From a virus (taxonomy: Duplodnaviria; Heunggongvirae; Uroviricota; Caudoviricetes), in the IMG/VR virus record IMGVR_UViG_2737471818_000001: a DNA stretch of 32,870 bases, one strand, 5' to 3'. Every line of letters begins with the position of its first letter. Position 1 is the first letter of the stretch. The notes beneath the pieces are model-generated. The model did not search any database. It was given only the letters and a program-made list of their open reading frames with translations, and was not told the DNA's origin. A program made the position numbers and the translations under genes. Below, one piece after another: positions 2,417 to 32,288 of the stretch.

Positions 2417-2429
2417 TTTGCCCCCTCTC

Positions 2430-5342: not shown

Positions 5343-5383
5343 CAGGAAAAGTGACCGGCCAGCCTCACTGACCGGGTAAGGGA

Positions 5384-5902: not shown

Positions 5903-5914
5903 GCTCTGAGCTCC

Positions 5915-7108: not shown

Positions 7109-7169
7109 CCGTTTAACTCCGTGGTTAAGGGTGAGTGTATTTTCTGTTGTGTGGTGATGGCGGGCTATT

Positions 7170-7194
7170 TGTCAGGGTTGGATAAGGTCTGACA
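7170..7194 (-). promoter_or_regulatory. Candidate Ogr-dependent late promoter element (PF), dyad TGTCAG-N13-CTGACA
   Basis: Perfect 6-bp inverted repeat about 60-85 bp upstream of the FI start codon; P2 late promoters carry a TGT...ACA dyad near -55. Confidence 0.4.
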
Positions 7195-7244
7195 CAACCG
7201 GGGAGCAGGAAAGCGCGGGCAACCGCCCGCCTGAATTACACTGG

Positions 7245-7823
7245 TTATGCGGGCAGTTCCGGCCATGTGATATCGGGGGCATCTTCGGGTTTGACTCTGT
7301 TGAGCATGACCCGATATTTTTTCCATTCATTAAGCGCGGTCGCTTCGTCTTCCGTTGCCATATCCAGATCAACGGCATCCTGCAGGGGGGCAATAGCCGA
7401 TGTTGCAATCATCAGCAGGTTTGATTTTTCCTGCGCCGCCTGCCCCTGACGAAATGTTTTTTCCGCTTCGGCATCGTGGATCCACTTAGCGCCATCCCAT
7501 TTTACATACTCCCCGTCAGGAGCAACCGACACAACGTTATCAGGCAGAGCGCCAAGTTTTTCAATAACAGCGGGCTTACCGGTGCTGATGTCATAGACGG
7601 TTGTCCCGCGGTAGTCCTCCACCCGCGACCATTTATTAGCCTGAGCATCGAAAACAGCCACAAAACCTGCCGTCACTTTTGGGGGCGCGATATCGGTACT
7701 GTAAGCAGGCAAGCCCGTATTAGCAGGGATAAACCCATCAGATTTCCCAATAAATTCATTTGTATCTGAACGAAGGTTATAAAGAATAATTGTCCGGTTT
7801 TCTCCGGTCATTTCAAAAGCCAT
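7245..7823 (-). CDS. G: Tail fiber assembly protein (Tfa), 192 aa
   Basis: Immediately downstream of tail fiber H with a 1-nt start/stop overlap; size and position of P2 gpG. Confidence 0.8.
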   Translation of the reverse strand: MAFEMTGENRTIILYNLRSDTNEFIGKSDGFIPANTGLPAYSTDIAPPKVTAGFVAVFDAQANKWSRVEDYRGTTVYDISTGKPAVIEKLGALPDNVVSVAPDGEYVKWDGAKWIHDAEAEKTFRQGQAAQEKSNLLMIATSAIAPLQDAVDLDMATEDEATALNEWKKYRVMLNRVKPEDAPDITWPELPA

Positions 7824-12094: not shown

Positions 12095-12429
12095 GGGGAA
12101 AGGATGCCGCCGGGGAAGGCCAGCGGCAATCGGGCGGGGTTTTGTGGGGGTTGAAACAACAACCAACAACCCAGAAAAACTATTTCCTAATTGCTCAATG
12201 CTTATAAGTAATTATCCAAATCCTTCCATAAGCCCCACTTACAAGCCAACAATGAACATCGTTACCACAAGTAACTTTTTGTGACCCCCTATCCAGTTAA
12301 AATAGCGCAGAATAAAGCATAAAAATTGAAACTATGGATAACCACATTGGAAAGATTTATACTTGTTAATATGTTAACCATTTGAAACCACTGCAGTTCA
12401 AACTTCTGAAAAGGAGCAATTTTCAACCT

Positions 12430-13359
12430 ATGGAAGTAACATTAAGCTTGAAAGATATTACGTCAATTATTGCAATAATCATCTCTCTTATTGCATTATA
12501 TTTTGCCGTAAGTAATTATAGGCGAAAATCCGGCACTCATATAAGAGGTCAATTTTGTATAAGTGAAAGTATAAACGCTGAAGACAAATACATCAGCAGT
12601 ATTACTTTGGAAAATTTCAAAGACAAATCCGTTATAATTTTCAAGATCTTCCTAAGAGTTGGAAGTAACTATTACATAGAGATTGATGACTTCGAGCGAG
12701 CCCCAAAAATACTAAAACCGTATGAATCCTATACTAATAACTACGACCCCGTGGATTTTTACTGTTTAAACATGAATCGTATTAATCTTAACAAACTTTT
12801 GAATTCAAAAAAAACAAAGATTAATATTGTGCTATCCACCTCTCATGGTAAGTATGTGGTAAAAGAATGGATAAATCTGTGGGATCCCATATATGATTTT
12901 TTCAAAAACCATATGACAGCTTATATCATCCCAATGACACCCATTGAAAAGGTGGGGTATTTTGGCTATAATTTCAAATACTTAGTCAAATTAAAAACTG
13001 AGGATGGATATAAAGAAACCATTCCAATTTATTCTAGTGACATTAATTACCCCAGGTTTAATAAATTTAGACTAACAGTGGAGTCACTTTCATCACGTGA
13101 AAAACTTGAAGACTTCCTAATAAATCAGATGATAATCGGAAATCTTAAATGTACTGATATTGAAGTTATCGACGCTGAACAACTAAGAAAAAGAAGTTAT
13201 CACCACGAATTTAAAGAAGAATATGAAGCAAAGCACTATAGTCTATTTTTCTATTTAGTTATTGGGAGACTATTAACCGTCTTTAGCAACATCAGGCTTC
13301 ACTTCATCAACCTCAAAAACAAAAAAAAGAGAAAACAATCCAACAATACAGACAGATAA
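12430..13359 (+). CDS. Low-GC cargo protein, 309 aa, with an N-terminal transmembrane anchor; function unknown
   Basis: ATG at 12430 preceded by AAGGAG (12411-12416); hydrophobic helix ITSIIAIIISLIALYFAV; Lys/Asn-rich; strongly AT-rich relative to flanking V and S; opposite strand to the late operons. Confidence 0.7.
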   Translation: MEVTLSLKDITSIIAIIISLIALYFAVSNYRRKSGTHIRGQFCISESINAEDKYISSITLENFKDKSVIIFKIFLRVGSNYYIEIDDFERAPKILKPYESYTNNYDPVDFYCLNMNRINLNKLLNSKKTKINIVLSTSHGKYVVKEWINLWDPIYDFFKNHMTAYIIPMTPIEKVGYFGYNFKYLVKLKTEDGYKETIPIYSSDINYPRFNKFRLTVESLSSREKLEDFLINQMIIGNLKCTDIEVIDAEQLRKRSYHHEFKEEYEAKHYSLFFYLVIGRLLTVFSNIRLHFINLKNKKKRKQSNNTDR

Positions 13360-13378
13360 TTAATTTTTATAAATAGTA

Positions 13379-13425
13379 GTAAGATGTGAACAACCATTAA
13401 ATCGTATGAATTGCTCACATCTTAC
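13379..13425. terminator. Hairpin between the cargo gene and S, possible bidirectional terminator
   Basis: Inverted repeat GTAAGATGTGA(ACAA) ... (TTGC)TCACATCTTAC with a loop of about 17 nt, placed between two convergent genes. Confidence 0.4.
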
Positions 13426-16368: not shown

Positions 16369-17124
16369 TTAACCTGCGGCTTTTGCCGCTTTCGGGGGAC
16401 GCCCGCGCCGTGCCGCCGGTTTAGCGGCAGGTTTGCGCGTGCGCGGTTTATTCTGTTTTGGTGCAGGTTCTGCTTTTGGTTTCAGCGCACGCTCGAGCTG
16501 TTCAATATCCTTTTTCACACCGACAGTTCGCTCTAACTGGATCGCCCGCTGCAGGTGCGTCAGCGCGTCAGTCAGGCGGACATCCTCACGCAGCACGTAG
16601 CCGGTAATTTTGTGCAGCTTCGCGCGCACGATATCCGGCATGTCTGCCCGTTCGGTCAGTGCAATGGTGTCGAGCAGGAGCTGCAGCCCGACAGGCTGTT
16701 TCGCATCGAGCAGGCGCTGCGCTGACAGGGCGACCTCTTCGGCCAGCAGATACGGCGTGGTGCGCCGGTGGCCGCCGGTCGGCATGGTCAGGCCATAGGT
16801 CATCGCATAGCGGGCAATCTCCAGCGCACCGGCGATATCATCCGCATCGAGACGCCACAGCATGACGGTCATCACAATGTCATCCTGCGCCCCTTTTCCG
16901 GCGCTGAGGACACCCGACACCCACGGCAGATAGAACGGCAGCAGCTCACGCTTTTTGTCTGCCTTGCGTTCATTGGAGCGGATTTGTTTTAACGTGCGAC
17001 AGTCTGCGGCCAGCTTGACGAGCATCTGCTCATAGGCAGTTGCATTGCGCAGCGGAGCAGCAGCCCGCCGCGCAGTTTCAGAGGCCGAGACCCGCATCAT
17101 GTGACGCGCTGCGGGACTCGTCAT
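16369..17124 (-). CDS. M: Terminase small (endonuclease) subunit M, 251 aa
   Basis: Similarity to P2 gpM as recalled; synteny N-M-L. Confidence 0.85.
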   Translation of the reverse strand: MTSPAARHMMRVSASETARRAAAPLRNATAYEQMLVKLAADCRTLKQIRSNERKADKKRELLPFYLPWVSGVLSAGKGAQDDIVMTVMLWRLDADDIAGALEIARYAMTYGLTMPTGGHRRTTPYLLAEEVALSAQRLLDAKQPVGLQLLLDTIALTERADMPDIVRAKLHKITGYVLREDVRLTDALTHLQRAIQLERTVGVKKDIEQLERALKPKAEPAPKQNKPRTRKPAAKPAARRGRPPKAAKAAG

Positions 17125-17127
17125 GGC

Positions 17128-18195
17128 TTATTCCCCGCTTTCCGGTGCGGCAGGTGCAGTGAAGTCACCGAGGTTGATGTTTTCAATCAGGCAACCGGCG
17201 GCGTAAGCCTCGACCACATAGTCAATACTCATCGACTCGTAGTTTTCGACGCGGTCTTTCTTCGGCTCCTCAATGATGGCGCGGCGGTGCGCATCATCCA
17301 TGAAGTAAATCGACAGGTTATCGAGGCGCGTCACCATCAGGGCATTCGCCGGGAAGTACGGCACGCGCACAGCAGGCAGGTTGCCGATACGCTTCTGGCT
17401 GATGATGATGTCAGCAGCCAGCGTTTCGCTGTTTTCCTGCGCCTTGTTGACCAGCGGGAAATACTTATCCGCCATCAGCTTACGCCCAGTGATAACGACG
17501 AGCTCCGGGTCATCCTGATAAATCTCATCAATCAGGTTGGTGGTCGCATCCATCACCAGCGCATCGAGGTTTTCATAGTCGCCGTTTTTACCCACGCGGA
17601 TCACATCGGAAATGACCTTGCCGTCATCATCGGTGACGTTGGACATCACGCGCGCGGCAGCTTCATTGCGGTACTTCTGCAGCCAGCCCACCGCGACATC
17701 CTGCAGCATCGGGTTCGTTTTGCGGTTGGAAGTCTCCGCGCGGGTGATACCGTTGAAACCAGCCATGATGAAATCGAGCGACTGACGCTTGATAATCGCG
17801 TCGCGGATACGGGTCTGAAAGTCCTGAAAACGCGCCCACAGGTCGAGCTGTTTGTAACGGATATGGAAATCAAAGTTGATTTGCGCGCACTCGTATTTGT
17901 TGGATTCGAGCGCAGTGAAATCAGCGGTCTTACGCTCGTCATCGGCGGCGGTGTCCGTGGTGCTCGCAATCGTACCGTTGACGCCGACCCCGACTTTTTC
18001 GCCTTTCAGCTCGTCGACCGGCACGATATTGATTTTGGTCAGAAACGCGGATGACGCCTGCAGGGTGGTCATCAAGGTCTGCGTCACGGACGGCTCAACG
18101 GTGAATTTTTTCGCCACGTCATCGGTGTCGACGCCGTTCAGCTCCGCCACGCGGGACAGGTAAGCATTGAATTTAAAGCGGGTATCTTTACGCAT
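17128..18195 (-). CDS. N: Major capsid protein N, about 355 aa from MRKDTRFKFNAYLSRVAELNG
   Basis: Strong similarity to P2 gpN as recalled; ATG at 18193-18195 is preceded by AGGA. Confidence 0.9.
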   Translation of the reverse strand: MRKDTRFKFNAYLSRVAELNGVDTDDVAKKFTVEPSVTQTLMTTLQASSAFLTKINIVPVDELKGEKVGVGVNGTIASTTDTAADDERKTADFTALESNKYECAQINFDFHIRYKQLDLWARFQDFQTRIRDAIIKRQSLDFIMAGFNGITRAETSNRKTNPMLQDVAVGWLQKYRNEAAARVMSNVTDDDGKVISDVIRVGKNGDYENLDALVMDATTNLIDEIYQDDPELVVITGRKLMADKYFPLVNKAQENSETLAADIIISQKRIGNLPAVRVPYFPANALMVTRLDNLSIYFMDDAHRRAIIEEPKKDRVENYESMSIDYVVEAYAAGCLIENINLGDFTAPAAPESGE

Positions 18196-18256
18196 TGTTA
18201 TTCCTGTTTTTCTACAAAGGGGCATCAGGCCGGGTGACGCGCACCCGGCAGGTCTG

Positions 18257-19277: not shown

Positions 19278-21047
19278 ATGACCATTTCAACTGACCTCTC
19301 CCTTTTGCACGACCCGCGACGACAGGCGCGCCTGCTGTTCTGGCAGGGGTTTTCCGTGCCACAAATCGCCGACACGCTGCAGGTCAAGCGCCCGACCGTG
19401 CAGAGCTGGAAACAACGTGACGGCTGGGAGGAAACCGCCCCGCTTAACCGCGTGGAATCCACGCTCGAGGCGCGCCTGATTCAGCTTTATGCAAAGCCTG
19501 ACCTGACGCCGCATGATTTCAAGGTCGCTGATTTTCTGTCACGCCAGATGGAACGGCTCGCGCGTGTCAGCCGCTACGGCCAGACCGGAAACGAGGCAGA
19601 TTTAAATCCCAACATTGCCAGCCGCAACAAAGGCGACCGCCGCAAGCCAAAACGTAATTTTTTCAGCGATGAGGCTATCGAAAAGCTCGAAGAGATTTTC
19701 TTCGATCAGTCCTTTGAGTATCAGCTCAACTGGCACAAGGCCGGTATCGCGCACCGTATTCGCCACATCCTCAAATCGCGCCAGATTGGCGCAACATTCT
19801 ACTTTGCCCGCGAGTCACTGCTGCGCGCCCTGAAAACCGGGCAAAACCAGATATTTTTGTCGGCCAGTAAGACGCAGGCTTACGTGTTCCGAAAGTACAT
19901 CATCGCCTTTGCGCGCATGGTCGAGGTTGACCTGTCAGGCGACCCGATTGTCATCGGCAACAACGGCGCAGAGCTGATTTTTCTCGGGACAAATTCCAAC
20001 ACAGCGCAGAGTCATAACGGCGACCTGTATGTCGATGAAATCTTCTGGATCCCTAACTTTCAGAAACTGCGCAAAGTCGCCTCGGGGATGGCGTCACAGT
20101 CGCACCTGCGCACCACCTACTTTTCAACCCCCTCGACGCTGGCACATGGCGCCTATCCGTTCTGGTCAGGCGAGCTGTTTAACCGGGGACGCAGCAGCGC
20201 CGCCGAGCGTGTCGACATCGATATCAGTCATAAGGCGCTGGCCGGGGGCGTGCTGTGCTCGGACGGACAGTGGCGGCAGATTGTCACCATCGAGGATGCG
20301 CTCGCCGGGGGATGCACGCTGTTTAATCTGGATCAACTGAAACAGGAAAACAGCGCCGATGATTTCCGCAACCTCTTCATGTGCGAGTTTGTCGACGACA
20401 AGGCGTCGGTATTCCCGTTCGAGGAGCTGCAGCGCTGCATGGTCGATGCGATGGAAGAATGGGAGGACTTCGAGCCGTTTTCTGACCGTCCGTTTAACTG
20501 GCGTCCGGTCTGGATTGGCTATGACCCGTCACATACCGGCGACAGCGCAGGCTGCGCGGTACTGGCTCCGCCACTGGTTGCCGGTGGCAAGTTCCGCATC
20601 CTTGAGCGTCACCAGTGGAAAGGCATGGATTTTGCGACGCAGGCCGAGGCCATCCGCGAGCTGACCGAAAAATACTGCGTCGAGTATATCGGCATCGATG
20701 CGACCGGCATAGGCCAGGGTGTTTACCAGCTCGTGCGCTCGTTCTTCCCGGCGGCGCGCGCCATTCGCTACACGCCGGAAATGAAAACCGCGATGGTGCT
20801 GAAAGCGAAAGACACCATCCGACGCGGGTGTCTGGAATACGACACCGGTGCAACCGACATCACACAGTCATTTATGGCTATCCGTAAAACCATGACCAGC
20901 AGCGGGCGAAGCTCCACCTATGAGGCCAGCCGCAGTGAAGAGGCCAGCCACGCGGATATTGCATGGGCAACCATGCACGCCCTGTTAAACGAGCCGCTTT
21001 CCGCCGGTAGCGGTATGCATTCAACGTCAATTCTGGATATTAACTGA
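19278..21047 (+). CDS. P: Terminase large (ATPase) subunit P, 589 aa
   Basis: Similarity to P2 gpP as recalled; GAGG ribosome-binding site upstream of the ATG. Confidence 0.9.
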   Translation: MTISTDLSLLHDPRRQARLLFWQGFSVPQIADTLQVKRPTVQSWKQRDGWEETAPLNRVESTLEARLIQLYAKPDLTPHDFKVADFLSRQMERLARVSRYGQTGNEADLNPNIASRNKGDRRKPKRNFFSDEAIEKLEEIFFDQSFEYQLNWHKAGIAHRIRHILKSRQIGATFYFARESLLRALKTGQNQIFLSASKTQAYVFRKYIIAFARMVEVDLSGDPIVIGNNGAELIFLGTNSNTAQSHNGDLYVDEIFWIPNFQKLRKVASGMASQSHLRTTYFSTPSTLAHGAYPFWSGELFNRGRSSAAERVDIDISHKALAGGVLCSDGQWRQIVTIEDALAGGCTLFNLDQLKQENSADDFRNLFMCEFVDDKASVFPFEELQRCMVDAMEEWEDFEPFSDRPFNWRPVWIGYDPSHTGDSAGCAVLAPPLVAGGKFRILERHQWKGMDFATQAEAIRELTEKYCVEYIGIDATGIGQGVYQLVRSFFPAARAIRYTPEMKTAMVLKAKDTIRRGCLEYDTGATDITQSFMAIRKTMTSSGRSSTYEASRSEEASHADIAWATMHALLNEPLSAGSGMHSTSILDIN

Positions 21048-21048
21048 C

Positions 21049-22056
21049 ATGAAAAAACAACAGAATAAACCCGCCACAACGACCGCCAGCGCGCCGCAAA
21101 AAATGGAGGCGTTCACCTTTGGCGAGCCCTCCGCCGTTCTGGATCGCCGCGATATCCTCGATTATGTCGAGTGCATCAATAACGGGAAGTGGTACGAGCC
21201 GCCGGTCAACTTCTCTGGTCTAGCAAAAAGCCTGCGAGCCGCCGTGCATCACAGCTCGCCGATTTACGTAAAACGAAATATTCTGACGAGCACCTACATC
21301 CCGCACCCGCTCCTATCGCGTCAGGATTTCAGCCGCCTCGTGCTGGATTATCTGGTCTTTGCCAACGGCTATCTTGAGAAACGCATGAGCGTTACCGGCC
21401 AGCTTTTAAAACTGGAAACATCACCGGCTAAATATACCCGTCGTGGCGTCGAGGATGGCGTTTACTGGTACATATCGAGCTTTAACAACCCCCACCAGTT
21501 CGCACCCGGCTCGGTGTTTCACCTGCTGGAGCCTGACATCAATCAGGAGCTGTACGGCATGCCGGAATATCTGAGCGCACTGAATTCGGCATGGCTAAAT
21601 GAATCCGCCACCCTGTTTCGTCGCAAGTATTACCAGAATGGCGCGCACGCGGGTTACATCTTGTACGTCACCGACGCTGCACAAAGCAGCACTGATGTTG
21701 AAGCACTACGCAAGGCAATGCGTGACTCAAAAGGACTCGGCAATTTCAAGAACCTATTTTTTTATGCACCGAATGGAAAAGCTGATGGGATCAAAATTGT
21801 GCCACTCAGCGAAGTAGCAACGAAAGATGATTTCTTTAACATCAAAAAGGTTAGTGCAGAAGATTTGTTGAGTGCTCATAGGGTACCTCCACAAATGATG
21901 GGAATTATGCCTAACAATGTTGGCGGTTTTGGTGATGTTGTAAAAGCTGCACAAGTTTTTGTCCGAAATGAGTTAACTCCTTTACAGGAACGGTTCAAAG
22001 AACTAAACAACTGGTTAGAAATGGACGTTATAAGATTTAAAAAATATTCACTTTGA
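21049..22056 (+). CDS. Q: Portal protein Q, 335 aa; the 3' ~350 bp has markedly lower GC than the rest
   Basis: Similarity to P2 gpQ along the whole protein; ATG 1 nt after the P stop; composition changes near ~21680. Confidence 0.9.
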   Translation: MKKQQNKPATTTASAPQKMEAFTFGEPSAVLDRRDILDYVECINNGKWYEPPVNFSGLAKSLRAAVHHSSPIYVKRNILTSTYIPHPLLSRQDFSRLVLDYLVFANGYLEKRMSVTGQLLKLETSPAKYTRRGVEDGVYWYISSFNNPHQFAPGSVFHLLEPDINQELYGMPEYLSALNSAWLNESATLFRRKYYQNGAHAGYILYVTDAAQSSTDVEALRKAMRDSKGLGNFKNLFFYAPNGKADGIKIVPLSEVATKDDFFNIKKVSAEDLLSAHRVPPQMMGIMPNNVGGFGDVVKAAQVFVRNELTPLQERFKELNNWLEMDVIRFKKYSL

Positions 22057-22120
22057 TTTTCGAAATAAACATCTCAACATTATATTCAGCCCTGTAACTC
22101 AAGAACCACATATAATAACG

Positions 22121-22147
22121 TCACAGCCCACTTTATCGGGGCTGTGA
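22121..22147. terminator. Hairpin TCACAGCCC-loop-GGGCTGTGA between the convergent Q and cargo operon
   Basis: 9-bp inverted repeat 5 nt downstream of the cargo partner stop, followed on the minus strand by a U-rich tract. Confidence 0.55.
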
Positions 22148-22151
22148 TAAT

Positions 22152-23264
22152 TTAACCAACCCTTGCTTTTTTATATGGACCACAACTCCAACTAAAGAAA
22201 TTCTTACCTAACTTATACCATTTATCAGAAAGCACTGGTGTTAGGTGAGGATTATATTTTTTTAAACTTCCCTTTTGTATATATTTCAATGTATTACTGA
22301 GCAAATTCTCTCCAAAACCATCATAACTTACACAAGCAGTGTTGCAGCTACAGCGTTTTGATTCGATATACTCACAATCATATTTTATATCAAGCTTCTT
22401 TAATATCGGACGCCAATATGCACCATGTTTTCGATCGAGTTCAAGGGCTGTTTTAAAATCAAAACCTTTTTTATGGTCAATGTAAAATTTTACTGATTCA
22501 TCTACGGAGCAAAGATGCTTAAAGAAAATGAGAGATTTTTCTTTTTGTTGAAATTGACTTTGACTTCTTAATACATCTTCAATTGTCGATAAAGGAACTA
22601 GAGATTCTATTTCATGTACATCTAAAATCTCAACGAAACCTGAGCGAGTGATTTGTGAGCCCAAAAAATGTGAGCAAGTACCCCCGAATGGGGCTCTAGG
22701 ATGTTTTTTGTCATTATCCACAATACAAAAAACTATCTCATTATTTTGAATTGCACGCTCGAATACATCCTTAGTACTGCCCCCACCGCCATTTAGAGCG
22801 ATAAAACCCATTTCGCAGCGAGATAAGTTAATACCTTCGGCATAATGAGCCGCTATAACTCTAAAAAAATCAGAATCCAAAGGATTTTCACATACTATTT
22901 TCGTTTTTTGCAATTGTGCCGAGTCATTAAAATACAATGGACCACAAACAAATTTAAAAGATTCACCGTTCTGAACCCATCTAAATGATTTATCACTAAT
23001 ATTAAAGTCGACAGATACATAAAATGAGACCTGGTTCAAGATAGCATAGTACTCTGTTAGACCCGACAAAGCCTCTTGCGCGTAACTTTTTGATGAAAGG
23101 CTATAAAGCCCGCTTTGATCATTGATAATAGTTTTAAAAAAAACCCTTGCCCCTATAACCAAGTGTTTTTGTTCAGCAAATGCCCGAAGTATATTCTCAA
23201 CCGCTATGGCAAATGAATTATTTAGCACCTTCTCAGGTGTCGCATTTTCGATATGAATCAACAT
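22152..23264 (-). CDS. Cargo protein, 370 aa, uncharacterized partner of the upstream ATPase; possible nuclease-like effector
   Basis: ATG 2 nt after the ATPase stop; low GC; hydrophobic strand followed by acidic motif IVFCIVDNDKK; glycine-rich LNGGGGST; C-terminal Cys cluster CSCNTAC...WSCGP. Confidence 0.75.
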   Translation of the reverse strand: MLIHIENATPEKVLNNSFAIAVENILRAFAEQKHLVIGARVFFKTIINDQSGLYSLSSKSYAQEALSGLTEYYAILNQVSFYVSVDFNISDKSFRWVQNGESFKFVCGPLYFNDSAQLQKTKIVCENPLDSDFFRVIAAHYAEGINLSRCEMGFIALNGGGGSTKDVFERAIQNNEIVFCIVDNDKKHPRAPFGGTCSHFLGSQITRSGFVEILDVHEIESLVPLSTIEDVLRSQSQFQQKEKSLIFFKHLCSVDESVKFYIDHKKGFDFKTALELDRKHGAYWRPILKKLDIKYDCEYIESKRCSCNTACVSYDGFGENLLSNTLKYIQKGSLKKYNPHLTPVLSDKWYKLGKNFFSWSCGPYKKARVG

Positions 23265-23266
23265 AA

Positions 23267-24823
23267 CTACTTACCAGAGAAAAAGCCAACCGGCCAATTT
23301 TGTAGGAAACCATTCTCGTCAAAATAAGATTTCTTAACTATGGTCTGCTGCTTTTCATCTTTTTCAAATACCAGTATTGAAATATCATCCTGTGAAAGAT
23401 TTTCATTTTCCTCAATATATTCACCAAGTGCTTCAATCATGGTCTGGCTATGTGTCTCAAAAATTATCTTCAAATCCACATTGTTTTCTTTTGCTTTAGT
23501 TACTACTTTTGCAAAAATACTTGCTAAATTATGTTGATATGACGGATGTAAATGCAATTCTGGCTGCTCAATGATAAATGTTATAGGTTTTCTAACCGTG
23601 GTAGCACGACGTTCTGTCTCAAGCCAAATGGCTGTAACTATCGGCAAAACCTGAGAGTAACCAAACCCCATATCACTAACATTATAGTTCTCACTATTTT
23701 CACCGGTATTTATTAAAATTGCAAAGTGAGAGCCACTTTGTTCAACCTTAATAATGAAATCAAAATTTAACTTTGTCCAATCTTCAAATTTTGATTTATC
23801 AGCCGGCCTTAATGAATTCAAAAGCATTGCAAGATTGGAACCAGTATGATCTATCTCATTAACCTGTAAATCTTGAAAGCGATAAAATCTTTCTGATGTA
23901 GCACGCAGTGGAGCTATGTACTTTACATTTCTGAATGAATCTGACAAGGATGTATTTATTATATCTATAAGATTATTAATATTCCATCCAATTATAAATG
24001 GATATAACTCATTCATTATTTCATCATGTTGAAGTTCAAAGTTTCTACTAAAAACTTTTTGTTCCTTGAATAGAAAAGCAACTAATTTACTAGCGTACGC
24101 TTTGGGTATAAAGCCAATTCTTTTGAATGCCTCTGTCACTTGATTTATATCAGATTTAGTATGGAAATATTTCTTTATATATTTCGCTGCTGAATCAATA
24201 AATGACAATTCTAATGCCCTGTCATGCCTAGAATGTCTCAAATAGAATGATGTGCTTGGAGGAGGACTATCTTCCTTACCCTTCAAAATTAGATTGGGTA
24301 TGAACTGCCCAAGATTTTTAGCTATTATCCCATCACGCTCTATTGTTTTATCATCTGATTCAATGAGTAACTTAACATTACTGTTCTCATCCATTGAAAT
24401 AAATATTGTTAAATCAGCCAATATAAGCTTAATCGTTTTTGTTTTTGTTTTTTTATCTTTAGAGTAAACAGTCAACTCTGCTTCAACATCTGTTGGTTGC
24501 TTTGCTAAATCAGTAAAACGATAATATGTATATCTTTGTGAAACCTCTGGCGGAATTGAGAGTGAAAAACTGAACGTAATTTCTTTTTTTTCAGAGTTTC
24601 GGGAAAGTACATCTGTAAAATCGCCAAAATCCACATATCGCCCATACCATAGTATTGGACCAGTAGTATTTTCTTCTACAGATTGACGAAGTAAAGGAAA
24701 TGTACGCAATAGGGAACTTTTACCACTGCTGTTCTTACCAACAAATACTGTAATTGGTTTTAAATCAATAAAAGTTTTGTTGACAAAGCTCCTGAAGTTT
24801 TGAAGACCTATACCCTTAATCAT
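23267..24823 (-). CDS. Cargo OLD/ABC-type ATPase (AAA_15/AAA_21-like), about 518 aa from the ATG at 24823
   Basis: Walker A VFVGKNSSGKSSLL; Walker B/D-loop FIIEQPELHLHPSYQ; H-loop ETHSQ; long insert between them. The track ORF extends to a TTG at 24895 that overlaps the cos-like site; the GGAG-preceded ATG at 24821-24823 is the likelier start. Confidence 0.8.
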   Translation of the reverse strand: MIKGIGLQNFRSFVNKTFIDLKPITVFVGKNSSGKSSLLRTFPLLRQSVEENTTGPILWYGRYVDFGDFTDVLSRNSEKKEITFSFSLSIPPEVSQRYTYYRFTDLAKQPTDVEAELTVYSKDKKTKTKTIKLILADLTIFISMDENSNVKLLIESDDKTIERDGIIAKNLGQFIPNLILKGKEDSPPPSTSFYLRHSRHDRALELSFIDSAAKYIKKYFHTKSDINQVTEAFKRIGFIPKAYASKLVAFLFKEQKVFSRNFELQHDEIMNELYPFIIGWNINNLIDIINTSLSDSFRNVKYIAPLRATSERFYRFQDLQVNEIDHTGSNLAMLLNSLRPADKSKFEDWTKLNFDFIIKVEQSGSHFAILINTGENSENYNVSDMGFGYSQVLPIVTAIWLETERRATTVRKPITFIIEQPELHLHPSYQHNLASIFAKVVTKAKENNVDLKIIFETHSQTMIEALGEYIEENENLSQDDISILVFEKDEKQQTIVKKSYFDENGFLQNWPVGFFSGK

Positions 24824-24894
24824 TCCTAGCTCCATTAGTTCAATAAAATCAATCGATTTTGAGACAATCTTAATATCTTTGACAGGCGCGCGCA

Positions 24895-24913
24895 ATGCTA
24901 TCCCCGCCTCGCC
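24895..24913. other. Candidate cos site (cohesive-end sequence)
   Basis: Minus-strand read GGCGAGGCGGGGATAGCAT matches the P2/186 19-nt cohesive end as recalled at about 17 of 19 positions and in the expected orientation between the A side and the Q side. Confidence 0.55.
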
Positions 24914-25195
24914 TGCACGCTTAACGGGTCGCTTTTAATGCAGTTGCATGACCACATAGGATCCGCGTCAGCTCTGGCGGCGCACGAACAGAACGGGCAT
25001 CCCCGACGCATGCAAAGCAATGCACCTGTTGCATGCACGGCTAAAAAACGGGAAATTCGCGGAAAAATGGCATAATAAAACCGGCTTTAATCGTGCCGGT
25101 TGGGGGCGGTCTCTACGGGACAGGCTAACGCCTCGCGGGGCTCGTTGTTCAACCCCGCTGGCACTGAAAACAAGTTTCAGCACCGGCTGCGTTTG

Positions 25196-25435
25196 CTAAG
25201 GTCGACGCGGTGGTGGCTTCGCCATATTTGGTCGCCGAAACGCCTCAATTTTCGGATTGCTGATATCGCTGTATTTGCGGTGATTATCCCGGACGACACC
25301 GGCACACCCGACCAGTTCGTCAGGTGTCAGATTCTCGTTAATCATAATTTGTTGCAGGCGATGCACGACGGCCATCAGCTTAATGTTTTGCGTTGAATGT
25401 ACCGGCGGCACTGGCATCATTCGCATATGACTCAT
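25196..25435 (-). CDS. Hypothetical small protein, about 79 aa from MSHMRMMPVPP
   Basis: ATG at 25433-25435 forms an ATGA overlap with the upstream gene; no recognisable motif. Confidence 0.5.
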   Translation of the reverse strand: MSHMRMMPVPPVHSTQNIKLMAVVHRLQQIMINENLTPDELVGCAGVVRDNHRKYSDISNPKIEAFRRPNMAKPPPRRP

Positions 25436-25896
25436 TTTAACCACCCATTTTTTTTAGCATATGCGACCATCTTATCGGAATATTGCCAGACACCATCATC
25501 AGCGACGTAAGCCCCACCCGAAACGCCGTTAAGCGTTTCATATCCAATAGCCAGCCCTAACGGGTGTAGAATTTCGTGATTAATTCTGAAAACAAGCCCT
25601 TTCTCGCTTAACTCTTTCCAGTTCATTAGGAACATACCGCACTGGACATCTGACATCATTAACTGAAAACTCAGCATCACATAATTTTCCACCCATTCAG
25701 CTAAATCAGTAACGTTTGTCACCCTCACTGATACACGTTTCCCGGTATATCCGTTTACCGGTTCCCATTCATGCAACCCGAGAATATCACCGCTAGAATA
25801 ATCGCGGTCATTGAGACGAAATTCAGCACGTTTTTCCCGAGATATCACCGCGTTAAAATGCTCAGGTGCAATTTTTAACTGATGGATTTTGCTCAT
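25432..25896 (-). CDS. ASCH/DUF3850-like domain protein, about 154 aa from MSKIHQLKIAPEHF, with an unassigned C-terminal extension
   Basis: N-terminal pattern H.LKI.PEHF.AV.S.EKR.EFRLNDRDY..GD recalled as typical of DUF3850; ATG at 25894-25896 overlaps the A stop by 1 nt; lower GC than A. Confidence 0.6.
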   Translation of the reverse strand: MSKIHQLKIAPEHFNAVISREKRAEFRLNDRDYSSGDILGLHEWEPVNGYTGKRVSVRVTNVTDLAEWVENYVMLSFQLMMSDVQCGMFLMNWKELSEKGLVFRINHEILHPLGLAIGYETLNGVSGGAYVADDGVWQYSDKMVAYAKKNGWLK

Positions 25897-28187
25897 TAAC
25901 TCCACTCCTTTTGCATTGAGAATCCCGGCCACTCATCAGCAGCCGCGTATTTGAATTTTTTATCGCCATAAATCACCGTTGCCCCACGCGCCAGCGCTTC
26001 AAGCTCCCACCGTTCCGGGGTAATGCCCTCCTGAGCCAAATCGAAACGAATTTTCGCTATGCGATCCCTTTCAGGTTTTGTCATCCTGGCTGATGGCGCT
26101 TGCTCGCCCGTTTTGAGTGGCTCATTGCTTCTTTGCTGGCGATTTTTGCGAGGGATGCCAGCTTTTAACGCGCCATTAAGCACCTTCATGACGTCTGGCT
26201 CATTCCAGCCGATAACCCCGCGCTCAATCAGATTTAACACCGCTGCGGCTTGCTCAGACGGTGTAGGTGTCATAACTGGAGTATCACCGCCGGTGAGCTT
26301 TCCACAGTTATTGACAGGACTCCGAGGCGCGGCAGAGCCGCTTTTTAAGGTCAAAGGCTCAACGGCCAAAATCTTTGGAACAATGCGCCATTCGGCTGTA
26401 CGGGTTACATGTATGCGGCTCGCCCCGAGGTGAGGGGCATAAATGCCGACCACTCTCTCAATATCTTCCTCATATTCGTTGACCTCATCCGTCACCTTAC
26501 GGGCGACCCTGACGGCCTGCGCATCACGCGGCATGTTTGCCCCACCCTGCGCGATGATATACAGGTCAAATTCACCTTCATCAGCAGCAGCCCGGACAGC
26601 CTCGACCCGGTCGTCAAACTCACTGGCGATACTCACGCCGCGCGGCAGCTTGCGCAGTTCGCGGTAAGCGCCCATTGTCGGCAGACCAATAGGTTTAAAC
26701 TGCGGGATGCGCCATGTAGACGCCCATGCGGTTACGGCTGCGGCGGTATCTTTCAGAGGCTTGCCGGTGTCGTGGTCGAGCTGGCCGTCGAGTGCGTAGC
26801 CGTCGATATTTTTGGCAATGTATTTAGCGATATAACCCGCCGCACCGCCCTGATTAAGATGACGTGACTCAAAGCGCTGTTTTGCCGCTCCCTTTTCGTG
26901 CCCGTCCTCTTTGAGAGCATAACGACGCATAATTTCGTTAATAGCTTTACGCTGACCGGGTTTGCAAAACATCATCATGTGCCAGTGTGGCGTCCCGTCG
27001 TGGTGCGGTTCGACAACACGCATCCCATAAACCTCTAAATCGTTATCTTTGAAAGCGGTGCGTATCAGGCTCCAGATTCGGCACAGATAGCGCTGGCCGT
27101 CTTTTGGGGTAAATGCGGTTTCATTCCAGCCATGATTGAGCTGCACAGTTTTGTTTTCACCTTTGCCGACCTGTCGGGTCGGGTGATACTTCGATGGCGT
27201 GGTCAGCGTGATAAACATCCCCACATCACCAACGCTGGCCGCGTAGCGTTCAATCCCGGCGATAGTGTTCATCAGTTCCATACGACGTATTTCAGGGTTA
27301 GAAATACTCCCCATTACCTTACTGATGAGGTCAATACGTTCACCGGTGACTTTGTTTTCCAGCTCGCAGGATTTCAGGTATTCGAGATTAGCCAAGCGGC
27401 GCGCGTGCACATCGCGGATCGCCATTTTGCTTGCGTAAGGTGAGCGGTCTTTGTTGACCTCACCAGCCGCAATAAGCAGCGCCTCGCGCCAGCGCATCCG
27501 CTGCGCCTTGAGCTGGCTGACCCACCACTCATCTTTTATCAGACGGGAAATAGCAGAAAATGCCATGCGGATCGTCATCTGACCCTTACGGTATTTTTTC
27601 CAGTACATCGGGGTGAAGTTAAAAGCGCGAGCAATACCTGCCACCTGACCGTATAAATGCGCCTGCGCCTCATCGGTGAATAAAGTTTCTTTCCCGCCGT
27701 GCGCCTCCTCCCATGCGTCGCTTAACTCCTCGTATTTGCTCCAGAGTTGTGACGCTATTCTGGCCGCAAATTTCTTAAGCTCTTTGTCATTCATATCAGG
27801 CAGGCGCGTATATTCATCACGCTCAGACAGAAAGCCGCGCGAGACAGAATCATTCATCCCGCACAGCTCGTTAACACGTTCAAGTCGGGGTAACAGTTTC
27901 CGCTCAAAAGTGTTTCTTAGGAAATACAGCCCATCGAGAGGGCTTTTGCTTCGTCTAATGAAGTTATAACGAGAGTTAAACAGTGTTTTCAGGAAAAAAG
28001 GGAGGCGGTCGATTCGATATAAAACACCTTGCACCTGACGGAATTCGGCACGTGTAAGGGGTCTGTCACGACCGATGGCCGCTTGAGGGGCATTCCATGA
28101 GTAAGCGCCGACGAACGTGTCGCCGGTGCGCTTAGATATTTTTGGCAGTAACGAAGAGGCAACTTGCCCCCGAGATTCAACGGCCAT
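25896..28187 (-). CDS. A: Replication initiation protein A (rolling-circle nickase), about 763 aa from MAVESRGQVA
   Basis: Strong similarity to P2 gpA as recalled, including ...VVEPHHDGTPHWHMMMFC... and ...LNQGGAAGYIAKYIAKNIDGY...; ATG at 28185-28187. Confidence 0.9.
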   Translation of the reverse strand: MAVESRGQVASSLLPKISKRTGDTFVGAYSWNAPQAAIGRDRPLTRAEFRQVQGVLYRIDRLPFFLKTLFNSRYNFIRRSKSPLDGLYFLRNTFERKLLPRLERVNELCGMNDSVSRGFLSERDEYTRLPDMNDKELKKFAARIASQLWSKYEELSDAWEEAHGGKETLFTDEAQAHLYGQVAGIARAFNFTPMYWKKYRKGQMTIRMAFSAISRLIKDEWWVSQLKAQRMRWREALLIAAGEVNKDRSPYASKMAIRDVHARRLANLEYLKSCELENKVTGERIDLISKVMGSISNPEIRRMELMNTIAGIERYAASVGDVGMFITLTTPSKYHPTRQVGKGENKTVQLNHGWNETAFTPKDGQRYLCRIWSLIRTAFKDNDLEVYGMRVVEPHHDGTPHWHMMMFCKPGQRKAINEIMRRYALKEDGHEKGAAKQRFESRHLNQGGAAGYIAKYIAKNIDGYALDGQLDHDTGKPLKDTAAAVTAWASTWRIPQFKPIGLPTMGAYRELRKLPRGVSIASEFDDRVEAVRAAADEGEFDLYIIAQGGANMPRDAQAVRVARKVTDEVNEYEEDIERVVGIYAPHLGASRIHVTRTAEWRIVPKILAVEPLTLKSGSAAPRSPVNNCGKLTGGDTPVMTPTPSEQAAAVLNLIERGVIGWNEPDVMKVLNGALKAGIPRKNRQQRSNEPLKTGEQAPSARMTKPERDRIAKIRFDLAQEGITPERWELEALARGATVIYGDKKFKYAAADEWPGFSMQKEWS

Positions 28188-28452
28188 TAGCAGAAAACGC
28201 GGTCTGACACTGCTGACCAATATGCTCGACCTGCTCGCCAATTTCCTCAAAACTGGCCGCCTCACCGGTCAGGATGCCGTGTAATATCAGACCAGATACG
28301 AGCCTGGAAATTGTTGGATAATAACCAACAACACCGAGCCACTCTTTACCGGCGTTCTTTCCTGATTTTGCGGTTTTCTTTTCCTTCAAAATAAATTGAA
28401 ACTGGTCACTAATGACGACGAAACGGTCGCCCACCTCAATATAAATTGACAT
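28177..28452 (-). CDS. Hypothetical protein, 91 aa, in the P2 orf80-83 position between B and A
   Basis: ATG-started ORF overlapping the A start by 11 nt; position only. Confidence 0.55.
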   Translation of the reverse strand: MSIYIEVGDRFVVISDQFQFILKEKKTAKSGKNAGKEWLGVVGYYPTISRLVSGLILHGILTGEAASFEEIGEQVEHIGQQCQTAFSANGR

Positions 28453-29997: not shown

Positions 29998-30413
29998 GCG
30001 TCTAATTCATGTGGTACGGCTTTTTGGGAACGATGCGGCCGTACCATCACATTAAAAATGTCATCCCAATCGTCCTTGCTCATTAGCGTAATTCCTAGCT
30101 CTCGCGCCTTTTCTCTCACACAGCGCGCCAGATATAAACGATTATCAATACTTATCCCTATAGCCCTTTCTTTCATGCGGCCGTAGTTATCAGAAAGAAG
30201 CTGTATCAAGTCAAGGCGTAGTATTTCCACTGAGCCATCAGTGCTGCGAAAAACTAAATCATCGCCATCAATAAACACTGGTTCACTTTTGATCTCTTCG
30301 CTATTCACCCACTTACGCAGACTTCGTGGAATAACAAGACTATTAGAAAGTGTCATTTCGTCTAATTCACCACGGAATAAAGCTACTTTTATGGTTTTCG
30401 ACTGATGTTCCAT
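29994..30413 (-). CDS. Early-operon accessory protein, 139 aa, downstream of cox; function unknown
   Basis: ATG preceded by a strong G-rich ribosome-binding site (AAGGGGGGGAG); GC lower than the backbone. Confidence 0.7.
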   Translation of the reverse strand: MEHQSKTIKVALFRGELDEMTLSNSLVIPRSLRKWVNSEEIKSEPVFIDGDDLVFRSTDGSVEILRLDLIQLLSDNYGRMKERAIGISIDNRLYLARCVREKARELGITLMSKDDWDDIFNVMVRPHRSQKAVPHELDA

Positions 30414-30477
30414 TTCTCCCCCCTTATGCCGACTGGTCAGCTAGCCATTCACCAACTGAGCGATGTATTTCAACCGG

Positions 30478-30747
30478 TTAAGACCCTAAGCCCAACCACA
30501 TTAGCCACCCTTCCCTAATCGCTTTCGGACGGCTTTCATATGCAAGTTTCATTCCGTTGTTCCAGGCAGGGAGATAGACCCAATACTCTCCAGCACGGCC
30601 AGACGCTGACTGAGGATCTGTCATTTCAATTACTGGCAATTTTCCCTTATCAATCATTCCCTTTACGGCACGCTCCGATTTGCCAATCAGTCTTGCAAAC
30701 TCCTGATATGGCACTGCCTCTGTTTGTAACGCGATTTGCTTCGCCAT
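30478..30747 (-). CDS. cox: Cox (excisionase and repressor of the lysogenic promoter), 89 aa
   Basis: Close similarity to P2 Cox as recalled (...PYQEFARLIGKSERAVKGMIDKGKLPVIEMTDPQSASGRAGEYWVYLPAWNNG...). Confidence 0.9.
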   Translation of the reverse strand: MAKQIALQTEAVPYQEFARLIGKSERAVKGMIDKGKLPVIEMTDPQSASGRAGEYWVYLPAWNNGMKLAYESRPKAIREGWLMWLGLGS

Positions 30748-31280: not shown

Positions 31281-32288
31281 ATGACAATTAAGAAGCTCGA
31301 TGATGGTCGATACGAAGTGGACGTTAGACCTGCAGGGCGCAACGGAAAGCGCATCCGCAGGAAATTTGACAAGAAAAGTGAGGCTGTAGCTTTTGAGAAA
31401 CACACTCAATACAACCATCACGATAAAGAATGGCTGGCTAAACCGACAGATAAGCGGCATCTGTCTGAGTTAACAAAAGTCTGGTGGGATCTGAAAGGTA
31501 AGCATGAAGAACACGGAAAATCCAATTTGGGTAAGATTGAAATATTTACTCGGATCACTGATGACCCTTGCGCATTCCAGATAACCAAAGCGCTTATTAG
31601 CCAGTACAGCATGACTCGCAGAGGGCAAGGCATAAAACCGGCCAGTATAAACCGCGACCTTACCTGCCTGAGTGGCATGTTTACTGCACTAATTGATGCG
31701 GAGTTGTTTTTTGGTGAACATCCTTTCAGAGGTATGAAAAAGCTCAAGGAGCAGAAACCAGAAACCGGATATCTGACGCAGGAAGAAATAACATTGTTGC
31801 TTGCCAATCTTGACGGGGACAACAAGAAAATCGCGATTCTCTGTCTAAGTACCGGCGCTCGATGGGGTGAAGCTGCGAAACTGAAAGCTGAGAACGTAAT
31901 ACAGAATCGGGTGACGTTCGTTAAAACAAAGACAAACAAACCGCGCACTGTCCCTATCTCTGAGGAAGTAGCTGTAATGATTGCGGGTAAGGGTTATCTG
32001 TTCCCTGATGCCTCATACCCGAAGTTCAGGCGAACAATGAAAGATGTAAAACCGGATCTACCGGACGGGCAAGCAACTCACGCATTGCGTCACAGTTTTG
32101 CTACCCACTTTATGATTAACGGCGGGAGTATCATCACCTTGCAGAGAATACTGGGACATTCACGAATAGAGCAGACAATGGTCTATGCGCACTTTGCCCC
32201 GGAGTATCTTCAAGATGCTGTTTCCCTCAATCCGCTACGTGGTGGTGTTGACTCCCAGAGTGTCCACATAATGTCCACGCTGGAGTGA
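31281..32288 (+). CDS. int: Tyrosine integrase, 335 aa
   Basis: Close similarity to P2 Int as recalled, including C-terminal HALRHSFATHFM...LGHSRIEQTMVYAHF; GGAGG ribosome-binding site. Confidence 0.9.
   Translation: MTIKKLDDGRYEVDVRPAGRNGKRIRRKFDKKSEAVAFEKHTQYNHHDKEWLAKPTDKRHLSELTKVWWDLKGKHEEHGKSNLGKIEIFTRITDDPCAFQITKALISQYSMTRRGQGIKPASINRDLTCLSGMFTALIDAELFFGEHPFRGMKKLKEQKPETGYLTQEEITLLLANLDGDNKKIAILCLSTGARWGEAAKLKAENVIQNRVTFVKTKTNKPRTVPISEEVAVMIAGKGYLFPDASYPKFRRTMKDVKPDLPDGQATHALRHSFATHFMINGGSIITLQRILGHSRIEQTMVYAHFAPEYLQDAVSLNPLRGGVDSQSVHIMSTLE

What the first reader, a model, noticed from the sequence alone, without database searches (positions are those of the whole stretch)
24895..24913. 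Candidate cos site places the ATPase cassette at the extreme left end of the packaged genome
The minus strand reads GGCGAGGCGGGGATAGCAT, within about two mismatches of the P2/186 19-nt cohesive end as recalled, oriented correctly between A and Q. In P2 the accessory genes old and tin sit on the A side of cos, whereas here the two-gene cassette sits on the Q side, only ~70 bp from the cos core. Its promoter must therefore lie within or next to terminase recognition sequences, and the cassette would be the first DNA to enter a cell on injection if the left end leads.
Basis: partly seen in the sequence, partly recalled or inferred. Interest (0 to 1): 0.4.

Follow-up and report, generated by a model that had tools for sequence, protein, structure and literature searches.

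The report
P2-type cos site beside defence cargo
The motif is the DNA-packaging cut site (cos) of a complete P2/186-like prophage of E. coli, and the two-gene ATPase cassette next to it sits in a cargo slot between cos and the portal gene that has been described since 1996, so the layout is ordinary.

Summary
Observation confirmed. The minus strand at 24913..24895 reads GGCGAGGCGGGGATAGCAT. It is the only match in the window, with none in 100 shuffles. It lies inside a complete 55-bp P2/P4-type cos core (24942..24888). The published right ends of phages 186, PSP3, SEN1 and EtG align exactly to base 24914. The mismatches fall at positions that vary naturally (5, 13-14, 19).

The cassette lies on the Q side, 71 nt from the cohesive end. 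This is not unusual:
- 16 of 80 loci (79 related viral loci plus the window) carry at least 1 kb of low-GC cargo there.
- In those loci homology breaks right after TGCGCGC (cos+7) and in the last codons of Q.
- Retrons Ec67 and Ec86, phiCTX ctx and the P4 hotspot occupy the same position.

P4 diverges from P2 at cos+7 and is still packaged by P2 terminase. The replaced ~175 bp is therefore dispensable.

The cassette is an AAA_15/DUF3696 ATPase plus a partner with an OLD-type Toprim fold. I read it as a split OLD/PARIS-like candidate defence pair. It also occurs next to cos in P4-like satellites.

The best promoter candidate takes its -35 (TTGCGC) from the cos core. This is a prediction only. 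Which DNA end enters the cell first could not be tested.

The parts
24895..24913 (-). 19-nt cohesive-end sequence GGCGAGGCGGGGATAGCAT. Predicted staggered cuts: top strand 5' of G at 24913, bottom strand after T at 24895.
   Evidence: The right ends of 186, PSP3, SEN1 and EtG align to 24914. The cut positions are taken from the 186 record annotation.
24888..24942 (-). 55-bp cos core: 29 nt of right-end flank (TGCATTAAAAGCGACCCGTTAAGCGTGCA), the 19-mer, and TGCGCGC.
   Evidence: This equals the block of P2/P4 identity. The 55-bp core of Ziermann & Calendar 1990 is cited in PMC5694545 and PMC9594776.
24914..25195 (-). Right-end flank, 87% identical to 186 bases 30342-30624. It includes a hairpin plus T-run at about 25070-25101 that corresponds to the 186 t95b terminator.
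24867..24895 (-). Predicted sigma-70 promoter of the cassette: -35 TTGCGC (24895..24890, the last T of the cohesive end plus TGCGC of the core), 17-nt spacer, -10 TAAGAT (24872..24867). Prediction only.
   Evidence: top PWM score in the window and in homologous loci L104, L098, L101, L102 and L105. The stricter consensus scan did not report it.
23267..24823 (-). Cassette gene 1: AAA_15/AAA_21/DUF3696 ATPase, 518 aa.
   Evidence: Pfam; PADLOC: NsnB 7e-55, PDC-M55A, AriA 3e-31; PGAP start codon.
22152..23264 (-). Cassette gene 2: 370-aa partner with a predicted OLD-type Toprim fold.
22119..22143 (.). Hairpin CACAGCCC...GGGCTGTG between the convergent cassette and Q. It probably acts as a terminator in both directions, replacing tQ/tW.
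   Evidence: z-scores -3.6 and -4.0.
21049..22056 (+). Portal gene (P2 Q / 186 W homologue). Its last ~50 nt belong to the swapped low-GC module.
19278..21047 (+). Terminase large subunit (P2 P homologue).
16369..17124 (-). Terminase small subunit (P2 M homologue).
25432..25932 (-). DUF3850 protein (P2 orf91 homologue). Apart from one 82-aa ORF (25196-25444) this is the only content on the A side of cos.
25896..28265 (-). Replication endonuclease gpA.

Best explanation
Window 24942..24888 (minus strand) is the cos site of a complete P2/186-like (Peduoviridae) prophage of E. coli. By homology, the phage terminase (M and P genes) recognises the 55-bp core and makes staggered nicks that leave the 19-nt 5' overhang GGCGAGGCGGGGATAGCAT. 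Directly after the core (cos+7, base 24888), the ~175 bp that normally separates cos from the portal-gene terminator, together with the last codons of Q, has been replaced by a 2.9-kb module of 32-36% GC. The module carries an AAA_15/DUF3696 ATPase, a Toprim-fold partner and its own terminator hairpin, and it is read from cos towards Q. This is the known cos-to-Q cargo slot of P2-like phages, and it corresponds to the P4 satellite hotspot. The replaced DNA is dispensable for packaging, because P4 shares only the 55-bp core with P2 and is still packaged by P2 terminase. Shown here: the identity and position of cos, the junctions, how often the slot is used, and the fold class of the partner protein. 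Inferred: that this cos is cleaved; that the cassette is an OLD/PARIS-like anti-phage pair expressed from the prophage; and that its promoter is TTGCGC-N17-TAAGAT with the -35 supplied by the cos core. On that last reading the promoter is intact only on circular or integrated DNA. I give that sub-claim about 0.4.
For: Cos identity: searches show a unique match that chance does not produce. One search shows the mature right ends of 186, PSP3, SEN1 and EtG aligning to 24914. One search shows that P2/P4 identity is 29+19+7 nt and is conserved in the window; 79 of the 80 Q-homologue loci from IMG/VR have exactly one such 19-mer, always between Q and A in the same orientation; the exception (L005) ends 174 nt after Q. 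The window's exact 19-mer recurs in L066, L077 and L081; the isolated phage ENT4 has the ...GATAGCAC variant; terminase, portal, capsid, tail and integrase genes are all present and each is a single full-length ORF. Slot: searches give 16 of 80 loci (79 IMG/VR loci plus the window) with at least 1 kb between Q and cos, with homology breaking right after TGCGCGC and in the last Q codons; that cargo is 33-43% GC, its main ORFs read from cos towards Q, and it includes a retron RT-Toprim, DUF262 proteins (NsnA / PD-T4-2-like hits), a type II methyltransferase, Avs5 and a helicase; phiCTX has cosL, then its own promoter, ctx and terminators, then convergent Q. P4 gop and beta start after cos+7. Literature: PMC6868368 and PMC5694545 on Dodd & Egan 1996. 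Mobility of the module: one search finds the same layout in 39 of 5,426 complete E. coli genomes; in one diverged backbone the cassette is about 99% identical while Q is about 12% diverged, and the block of identity starts inside the 19-mer and ends near 22000. Cassette. Promoter.
Confidence: 0.85

Rival explanations
1. The motif is an inherited but no longer functional cos. Loss of the ~175 bp on the left-end side would have crippled packaging, leaving the prophage cryptic and the cassette a domesticated host gene pair.
For: There are no end-mapping data. Phages without cargo share semi-conserved sequence in the replaced interval (AT tract followed by GCGTCTGAGCGCGTCGTGACGG-like sequence), which hints at some function. 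Chromosomal copies of the cassette with a decayed cos do exist (L092, L105, L102).
Against: P4 lacks that interval and is packaged by P2 terminase (for the sequence; the packaging is established knowledge, also stated in PMC9122126). phiCTX is a viable phage with cargo in this slot. One fifth of related viral loci carry cargo here. The 55-bp core is intact, with changes only at naturally variable positions. All morphogenesis genes checked are single full-length ORFs. A nearly identical cassette sits in diverged backbones, which implies continuing exchange among phages.
Confidence: 0.1
2. The cassette promoter does not overlap cos. It either lies wholly inside the 64-nt spacer (for example CTGTCA-N18-CAAAAT, -35 at 24885..24880) or transcription reads through from the A-side operon.
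For: One search lists CTGTCA-N18-CAAAAT as a lower-scoring candidate (5.0 against 7.8). P4-like copies of the cassette have 190-270-nt spacers and better candidates close to the ATG, so the cassette can work without a cos-derived -35. The cassette is co-directional with A and DUF3850.
Against: A hairpin with a T-run homologous to the 186 t95b terminator lies between the A-side genes and cos. The TTGCGC-N17/18-TAnnnT arrangement is the top candidate in six loci with short spacers, three of them P2-like prophages.
Confidence: 0.45
3. The 19-mer is a chance resemblance and not a cos site.
For: None beyond the two mismatches to P2.
Against: Zero matches in 100 shuffles. The whole 55-bp core and a further ~250 nt of flank are homologous to 186. 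The position and orientation are the same in 79 related loci.
Confidence: 0.01

Closest known systems
cos sites of coliphages P2, 186 and satellite P4 (55-bp core; Ziermann & Calendar 1990)
   Same: A 19-nt 5' cohesive-end sequence with 2 differences from either P2 or 186, a conserved 29-nt right-end flank, TGCGCGC on the left-end side, location between A and Q, and cognate M and P terminase genes.
   Different: Position 14 is T and position 19 is T. Both are natural variants seen in other loci. The flank beyond cos+7 is unrelated to that of P2 or 186.
Retron Ec67 / Ec86 insertion site in 186-related prophages (Dodd & Egan 1996, as cited in PMC6868368 and PMC5694545)
   Same: Foreign low-GC DNA replaces the ~180 bp between cos and the terminator of the packaging or portal gene. 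A retron RT-Toprim occupies the same slot in L069.
   Different: The cargo here is an ATPase plus a Toprim partner, not a retron. Here the replacement also takes in the Q terminator and the last Q codons and supplies its own hairpin.
phiCTX ctx locus and the P4 gop-beta-cII hotspot
   Same: Cargo lies directly after the left cohesive end, is read away from cos, and (in phiCTX) is followed by terminators and convergent Q. The same cassette family sits in the P4-like hotspot in Pectobacterium and Pantoea, and in a decayed P4-like element from an unidentified host (L096).
   Different: phiCTX has about 280 nt and an annotated promoter of its own between cos and ctx. Here only 71 nt separate the cohesive end from the ATG.
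P2 gpA-gpQ defence hotspot (Rousset et al. 2022, PMC9122126; Moura de Sousa et al. 2026, PMC13586616)
   Same: The locus falls inside the hotspot as those papers define it (between gpA and gpQ, next to cos).
   Different: In the passages I read, those papers do not say on which side of cos the cargo lies. This cassette's accessions were not found in the part of the Rousset tables that is held.
OLD-family nucleases (P2 Old, GajA) and PARIS (AriA/AriB)
   Same: An ABC/AAA_15 ATPase with a Toprim-fold nuclease module.
   Different: The ATPase and Toprim parts are separate polypeptides, unlike Old and GajA. The partner lacks a detectable DUF4435 (AriB) signature and has a Cys-rich C-terminal part. 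The ATPase carries DUF3696.

Membership tests
P2/186/P4-type cos site | 19-nt cohesive-end sequence of the GGCGWGGCGGGGAWAGCAY type | tested here: met
   2 mismatches to P2 (positions 14, 19) and 2 to 186 (positions 5, 14), all at naturally variable positions.
P2/186/P4-type cos site | Conserved 55-bp core (29-nt right-end flank + 19-mer + 7 nt) | tested here: met
   (P2/P4/186/window junction alignment). One search shows a single match, but to a consensus that the window helped define.
P2/186/P4-type cos site | Located between replication gene A and portal gene Q, with the 19-mer reading towards Q | tested here: met
   the same arrangement in 79 related loci.
P2/186/P4-type cos site | Cognate P2-type terminase (small M, large P) encoded by the element | tested here: met
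   PF05944, and PF03237 / PF17289 / PF06056.
P2/186/P4-type cos site | Terminase cleavage giving 19-nt 5' overhangs in virion DNA | not testable with these tools
   Needs virion DNA end mapping.
cos-to-Q cargo slot (Dodd-Egan site) | Foreign DNA replaces the ~175-180 bp between cos+7 and the end of the portal gene | tested here: met
   homology to relatives stops at 24888 and resumes inside the last Q codons. The gap is 2,838 nt, against 174-189 nt in loci without cargo.
cos-to-Q cargo slot (Dodd-Egan site) | Low-GC cargo read from cos towards Q, with its own terminator | tested here: met
   32-36% GC against 52-60% in the flanks; same orientation in the other 15 cargo loci; hairpin.
PARIS (AriA/AriB) | AAA_15/AAA_21 ATPase (AriA) | tested here: met
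   AAA_15 1.5e-26, AAA_21 6e-19; AriA 3e-31.
PARIS (AriA/AriB) | DUF4435 (PF14491) partner (AriB) | tested here: not met
   no DUF4435 or AriB hit for any of the 28 family members, even at E <= 1.
PARIS (AriA/AriB) | Toprim-fold effector | tested here: inconclusive
   [not shown]
Menshen (NsnABC) | Three genes: NsnA (DUF262-type), NsnB ATPase and NsnC | tested here: not met
   gene 1 hits NsnB (7e-55), but gene 2 has no PADLOC hit and there is no third gene.
OLD-family nuclease (P2 Old, GajA) | ATPase and Toprim domains in a single polypeptide | tested here: not met
   two separate ORFs (518 aa and 370 aa).

The most novel reading that the evidence does not exclude
The 55-bp cos core may do two further jobs besides packaging. 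(a) Its TTGCGC (the last base of the cohesive end plus TGCGC) may be the -35 of the cargo promoter. Cargo would then be transcribed only from circular or integrated DNA and never from the cleaved linear genome. (b) As the only sequence shared by P2-like helpers and P4-like satellites, the core may be the fixed recombination junction through which cargo modules move between diverged P2-like backbones and, over longer times, between helper and satellite. A 2026 survey (PMC13586616) found almost no recent exchange between P2 and P4.
Probability: 0.3. Interest if true: 0.5.

Novelty: new member of a known kind. Interest (0 to 1): 0.22.

Why it matters
This locus gives a clean worked example of how small the essential P2-type cos is. 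Everything beyond 7 nt on the portal side can be swapped. It also shows that the gpA-gpQ defence hotspot is really two slots, one on each side of cos. That is useful when annotating P2-like prophages, when designing P2/P4 cosmids, and when mining defence genes.

Three points may merit a small experiment:
- The cassette is an uncharacterised split ATPase/Toprim pair with OLD/PARIS-like features.
- Its predicted promoter overlaps the cos core.
- The same cassette family sits next to cos in both helper phages and satellites.

None of these changes current understanding.

Tried and rejected
- **Cassette in the phage collection.** A DNA search of the cassette against the phage collection found no match to the cassette itself, only hits to the end of the portal gene.
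- **Partner protein by sequence.** Pfam, PADLOC and NCBIfam gave nothing for the 370-aa partner. Pfam also gave nothing when all 28 family members were scanned at E <= 1. A PDB sequence-profile search gave nothing.
- **Rousset 2022 supplements.** No hit for the cassette's WP accessions or for CP027255. DUF3696 appears only in the P4 table, in a different system; the tables are truncated as stored.
- **Which DNA end enters first.** Four literature attempts found nothing usable. Ziermann & Calendar 1990 and Christie & Calendar 2016 are not held.
- **Consensus promoter scan.** No site at 9 of 12 or better between cos and the ATG.
- **A second cos remnant.** I considered that CCCGATAAAGTGGGC at about 22125 (similar to the 186 right-end flank) might mark one. 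I rejected this because no 19-mer is adjacent and the sequence forms the terminator hairpin.
- **Disrupted Q.** I considered that the low GC of the Q 3' end meant a disrupted Q. I rejected this because Q aligns full-length (335 aa) with 80 relatives.

Full report
**Setting.** The window is a complete P2/186-like prophage, inverted relative to the P2 map. It is 100% identical over the 5-kb stretch I queried (21000-26000) to E. coli EC11, NZ_CP027255.
- Tail and baseplate genes (D, T, FI, H) lie at 786-9658.
- Small terminase M is at 16369-17124, capsid N at 17128-18225, large terminase P at 19278-21047 and portal Q at 21049-22056.
- Two minus-strand ORFs follow at 22152-23264 and 23267-24823.
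- Next come the motif, a DUF3850 gene (the P2 orf91 homologue), replication gene A at 25896-28265, and the integrase at 31281-32288.

- The minus strand from 24913 to 24895 reads GGCGAGGCGGGGATAGCAT.
- It is the only match to the P2 19-mer with up to 3 mismatches in the window, and no match appeared in 100 shuffles.
- It differs from P2 at positions 14 and 19 and from 186 at positions 5 and 14.
- The GenBank records of 186, PSP3, SEN1 and EtG stop at the mature right end. All of them stop aligning at window base 24914, the base next to the motif. About 280 nt of right-end flank is 87-89% identical to 186 and EtG.
- Joining the right and left ends of P2, 186 and P4 shows that P2 and P4 are identical, apart from three bases, over 29 nt of right-end flank, the 19-mer and 7 nt (yGCGCGC). 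That is the 55-bp core attributed to Ziermann & Calendar 1990 in PMC5694545 and PMC9594776.
- The window keeps this core at 24942..24888.

**Variation in the 19-mer is natural.**
- Of 80 IMG/VR loci that encode a close Q homologue, 79 have exactly one such 19-mer, always between Q and A and always in the same orientation. The one exception, L005, ends 174 nt after Q.
- The commonest variant is GGCGAGGCGGGGATAGCAC.
- The window's exact sequence recurs in L066, L077 and L081.
- The isolated phage ENT4 carries the ATAGCAC form, and 186 ends in T.
- An E. coli ST167-type relative has ...GGGGTAAGCAT.
- Positions 5, 13-14 and 19 are therefore tolerant, and the mismatches do not argue against function.

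**The cassette is on the Q side, but that is a standard slot.**
- Across the 79 loci plus the window, the distance from the Q stop codon to cos is below 250 nt in 56 (174-189 nt in the typical no-cargo loci examined), 250-999 nt in 8, and at least 1 kb in 16.
- In the cargo-bearing loci, homology to cargo-free relatives breaks immediately, or within a few bases, after TGCGCGC. It resumes only inside the last codons of Q, and each module brings its own AT-rich Q tail and hairpin.
- The cargo is 33-43% GC and its main ORFs read from cos towards Q.
- It includes a retron RT-Toprim, DUF262 proteins (NsnA / PD-T4-2-like hits), a type II methyltransferase, Avs5 and a helicase.
- The window fits this pattern exactly. 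The break is at 24888, GC is 32-36% against 52-60% in the flanks, and a strong hairpin at 22119-22143 separates the cassette from convergent Q.

**Published precedents.**
- Retrons Ec86 and Ec67 replace the same ~180 bp between cos and the terminator of a packaging gene. This is Dodd & Egan 1996, as described in PMC6868368 and PMC7826664.
- PMC5694545 calls the cosL-to-Q interval a hotspot, citing that paper and the phiCTX paper.
- The phiCTX record shows cosL, then a promoter, ctx and terminators, then convergent Q.
- P4 diverges from P2 right after cos+7, and its gop-beta-cII genes begin there.
- Recent hotspot papers define the P2 hotspot as gpA to gpQ, next to cos, without saying which side.

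**Consequence for packaging.** P4 shares only the 55-bp core with P2 and is packaged by P2 terminase. That is established knowledge and is restated in PMC9122126. DNA beyond cos+7 on the left-end side is therefore not needed for recognition. Putting cargo 7 nt from the cohesive end does not intrude on the conserved recognition sequence.

**The cassette.**
- Gene 1 (518 aa from ATG 24823) is an AAA_15/AAA_21/DUF3696 ATPase. Its best PADLOC hits are NsnB, PDC-M55A, HEC-03B and AriA.
- Gene 2 (370 aa) matches no sequence model.
- Gene 2 belongs to a small family, mainly enterobacterial, of 31 clusters. In all 13 contexts examined it follows the ATPase.
- Its AlphaFold model is confident (pLDDT 89.8).
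- The alignment has invariant E126, D183-x-D185 and H217/E218/E220.
- I read the pair as a split OLD/PARIS-like ATPase plus Toprim nuclease and a candidate anti-phage system. It fails the formal definitions of PARIS (no DUF4435), Menshen (no NsnA or NsnC) and OLD (not fused).

**Where else the cassette occurs.**
- Two other P2-like prophages carry it in the same slot. In L098 cos is at 4389-4407 and the ATG near 4500. In L104 (Cronobacter) cos is at 4354-4372 and the ATG at 4445, a 72-nt gap.
- P4-like satellites carry it between psu/delta and int, after cos (L089-L091, L096, L097).
- One lambdoid prophage carries it between the antiterminator gene and the lysis genes (L103).
- Chromosomal copies exist with a decayed or IS-truncated cos (L092, L105, L101) and, in L102, only a possible TTGCGC remnant.
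- In an ST167-type E. coli prophage the cassette is about 99% identical to the window, while Q is about 12% and the A side about 5-8% diverged. The block of identity begins inside the 19-mer (no differences from 24899 to 24800) and ends near 22000.
- The module therefore moves between diverged backbones, with junctions in the cos core and the Q 3' end.
- PMC13586616 reports almost no recent P2-P4 exchange of defences. This family occurs in both at 58-72% protein identity, so the sharing is old.

**Promoter.**
- Only 71 nt separate the 19-mer from the ATG.
- A hairpin with a T-run homologous to the 186 t95b terminator lies upstream of cos.
- The consensus scan found nothing in this interval.
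- A simple PWM scan ranks TTGCGC-N17-TAAGAT first (-35 at 24895..24890, -10 at 24872..24867).
- The same arrangement, TTGCGC or TTGCGT with N17 or N18 and then TAnnnT, ranks first in L104, L098, L101, L102 and L105 and second in L092.
- P4-like copies with long spacers have other candidates.
- The -35 would consist of the last base of the cohesive end plus TGCGC. The bottom-strand nick would split it, so the promoter would exist only on circular or integrated DNA.
- This is a prediction, which I put at about 0.4. P2 and 186 also have an AT-rich tract at that distance, so conservation there could serve packaging instead.

**Order of entry.** I could not test whether the left end enters first. 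The relevant papers are not held. My recollection that the right end of P2/186 DNA is attached to the tail is unverified. For a prophage-expressed defence cassette the order of entry matters little.

**Verdict.** The cos site is real and correctly read. The cassette is correctly placed at the left end. The arrangement is a well-populated and long-described cargo slot.

Noticed in passing
window 12200-13400: A second low-GC island (30-33% GC against about 55% in the flanks). It holds a 325-aa plus-strand ORF (12382-13359) with no Pfam or PADLOC hit, lying between the V-like and S-like tail genes. This is the position of P2 orf30, another known cargo site.
   Followed up: partly
[not shown]
   Followed up: partly
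L092 about 4290-4449 and L105 about 4300-4446 (Klebsiella aerogenes-type chromosomal context); L101 about 4370-4443 (Brenneria): Chromosomal copies of the cassette still carry a decayed cos (for example GATGTGATGGGGAAAACATTGCACAC) or a cos cut by an IS element (GGGATAGCATTGCGCGC directly after the IS). They look like relics of P2- or P4-like elements.
   Followed up: partly
L103 4445-7113: The same two-gene cassette sits in a lambdoid prophage between the antiterminator gene (Phage_antitermQ) and the lysis genes, which is the classical lambdoid moron site.
   Followed up: no
L089, L090, L091, L096, L097: P4-like satellites of Pectobacterium and Pantoea, plus a decayed P4-like element from an unidentified host (L096, L097), carry the cassette in the psu/delta-to-int hotspot after cos. 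PMC13586616 reports almost no recent sharing of defences between P2 and P4. The sharing seen here is at 65-71% protein identity.
   Followed up: partly
window 21700-22056 compared with L109: GC falls to 34-41% across the last ~350 nt of Q. The cassette module's high-identity block extends about 50 nt into the Q 3' end. Different cargo modules supply different C-terminal Q codons (for example ...KYSL*, ...KYDLN*, ...DYSLE...).
   Followed up: partly
L006, L008, L012, L019, L014, L075 and L077 (about 175 nt between cos+7 and Q); P2 bases 27-160; 186 bases 27-163: Phages without cargo share a semi-conserved element after cos: an AT tract followed by GCGTCTGAGCGCGTCGTGACGGCGCT-like sequence. It has no annotated function and is lost in every cargo-bearing locus.
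   Followed up: no
L038 12500-12560 compared with window 24860-24890: An unrelated cargo gene (465 aa, no hits) in L038 shares the junction sequence AAAGATATTAA after TGCGCGC with the window's cassette. It has TTGCGC-N18-TAAAAT. This suggests the promoter-like junction can travel separately from the cargo.
   Followed up: no
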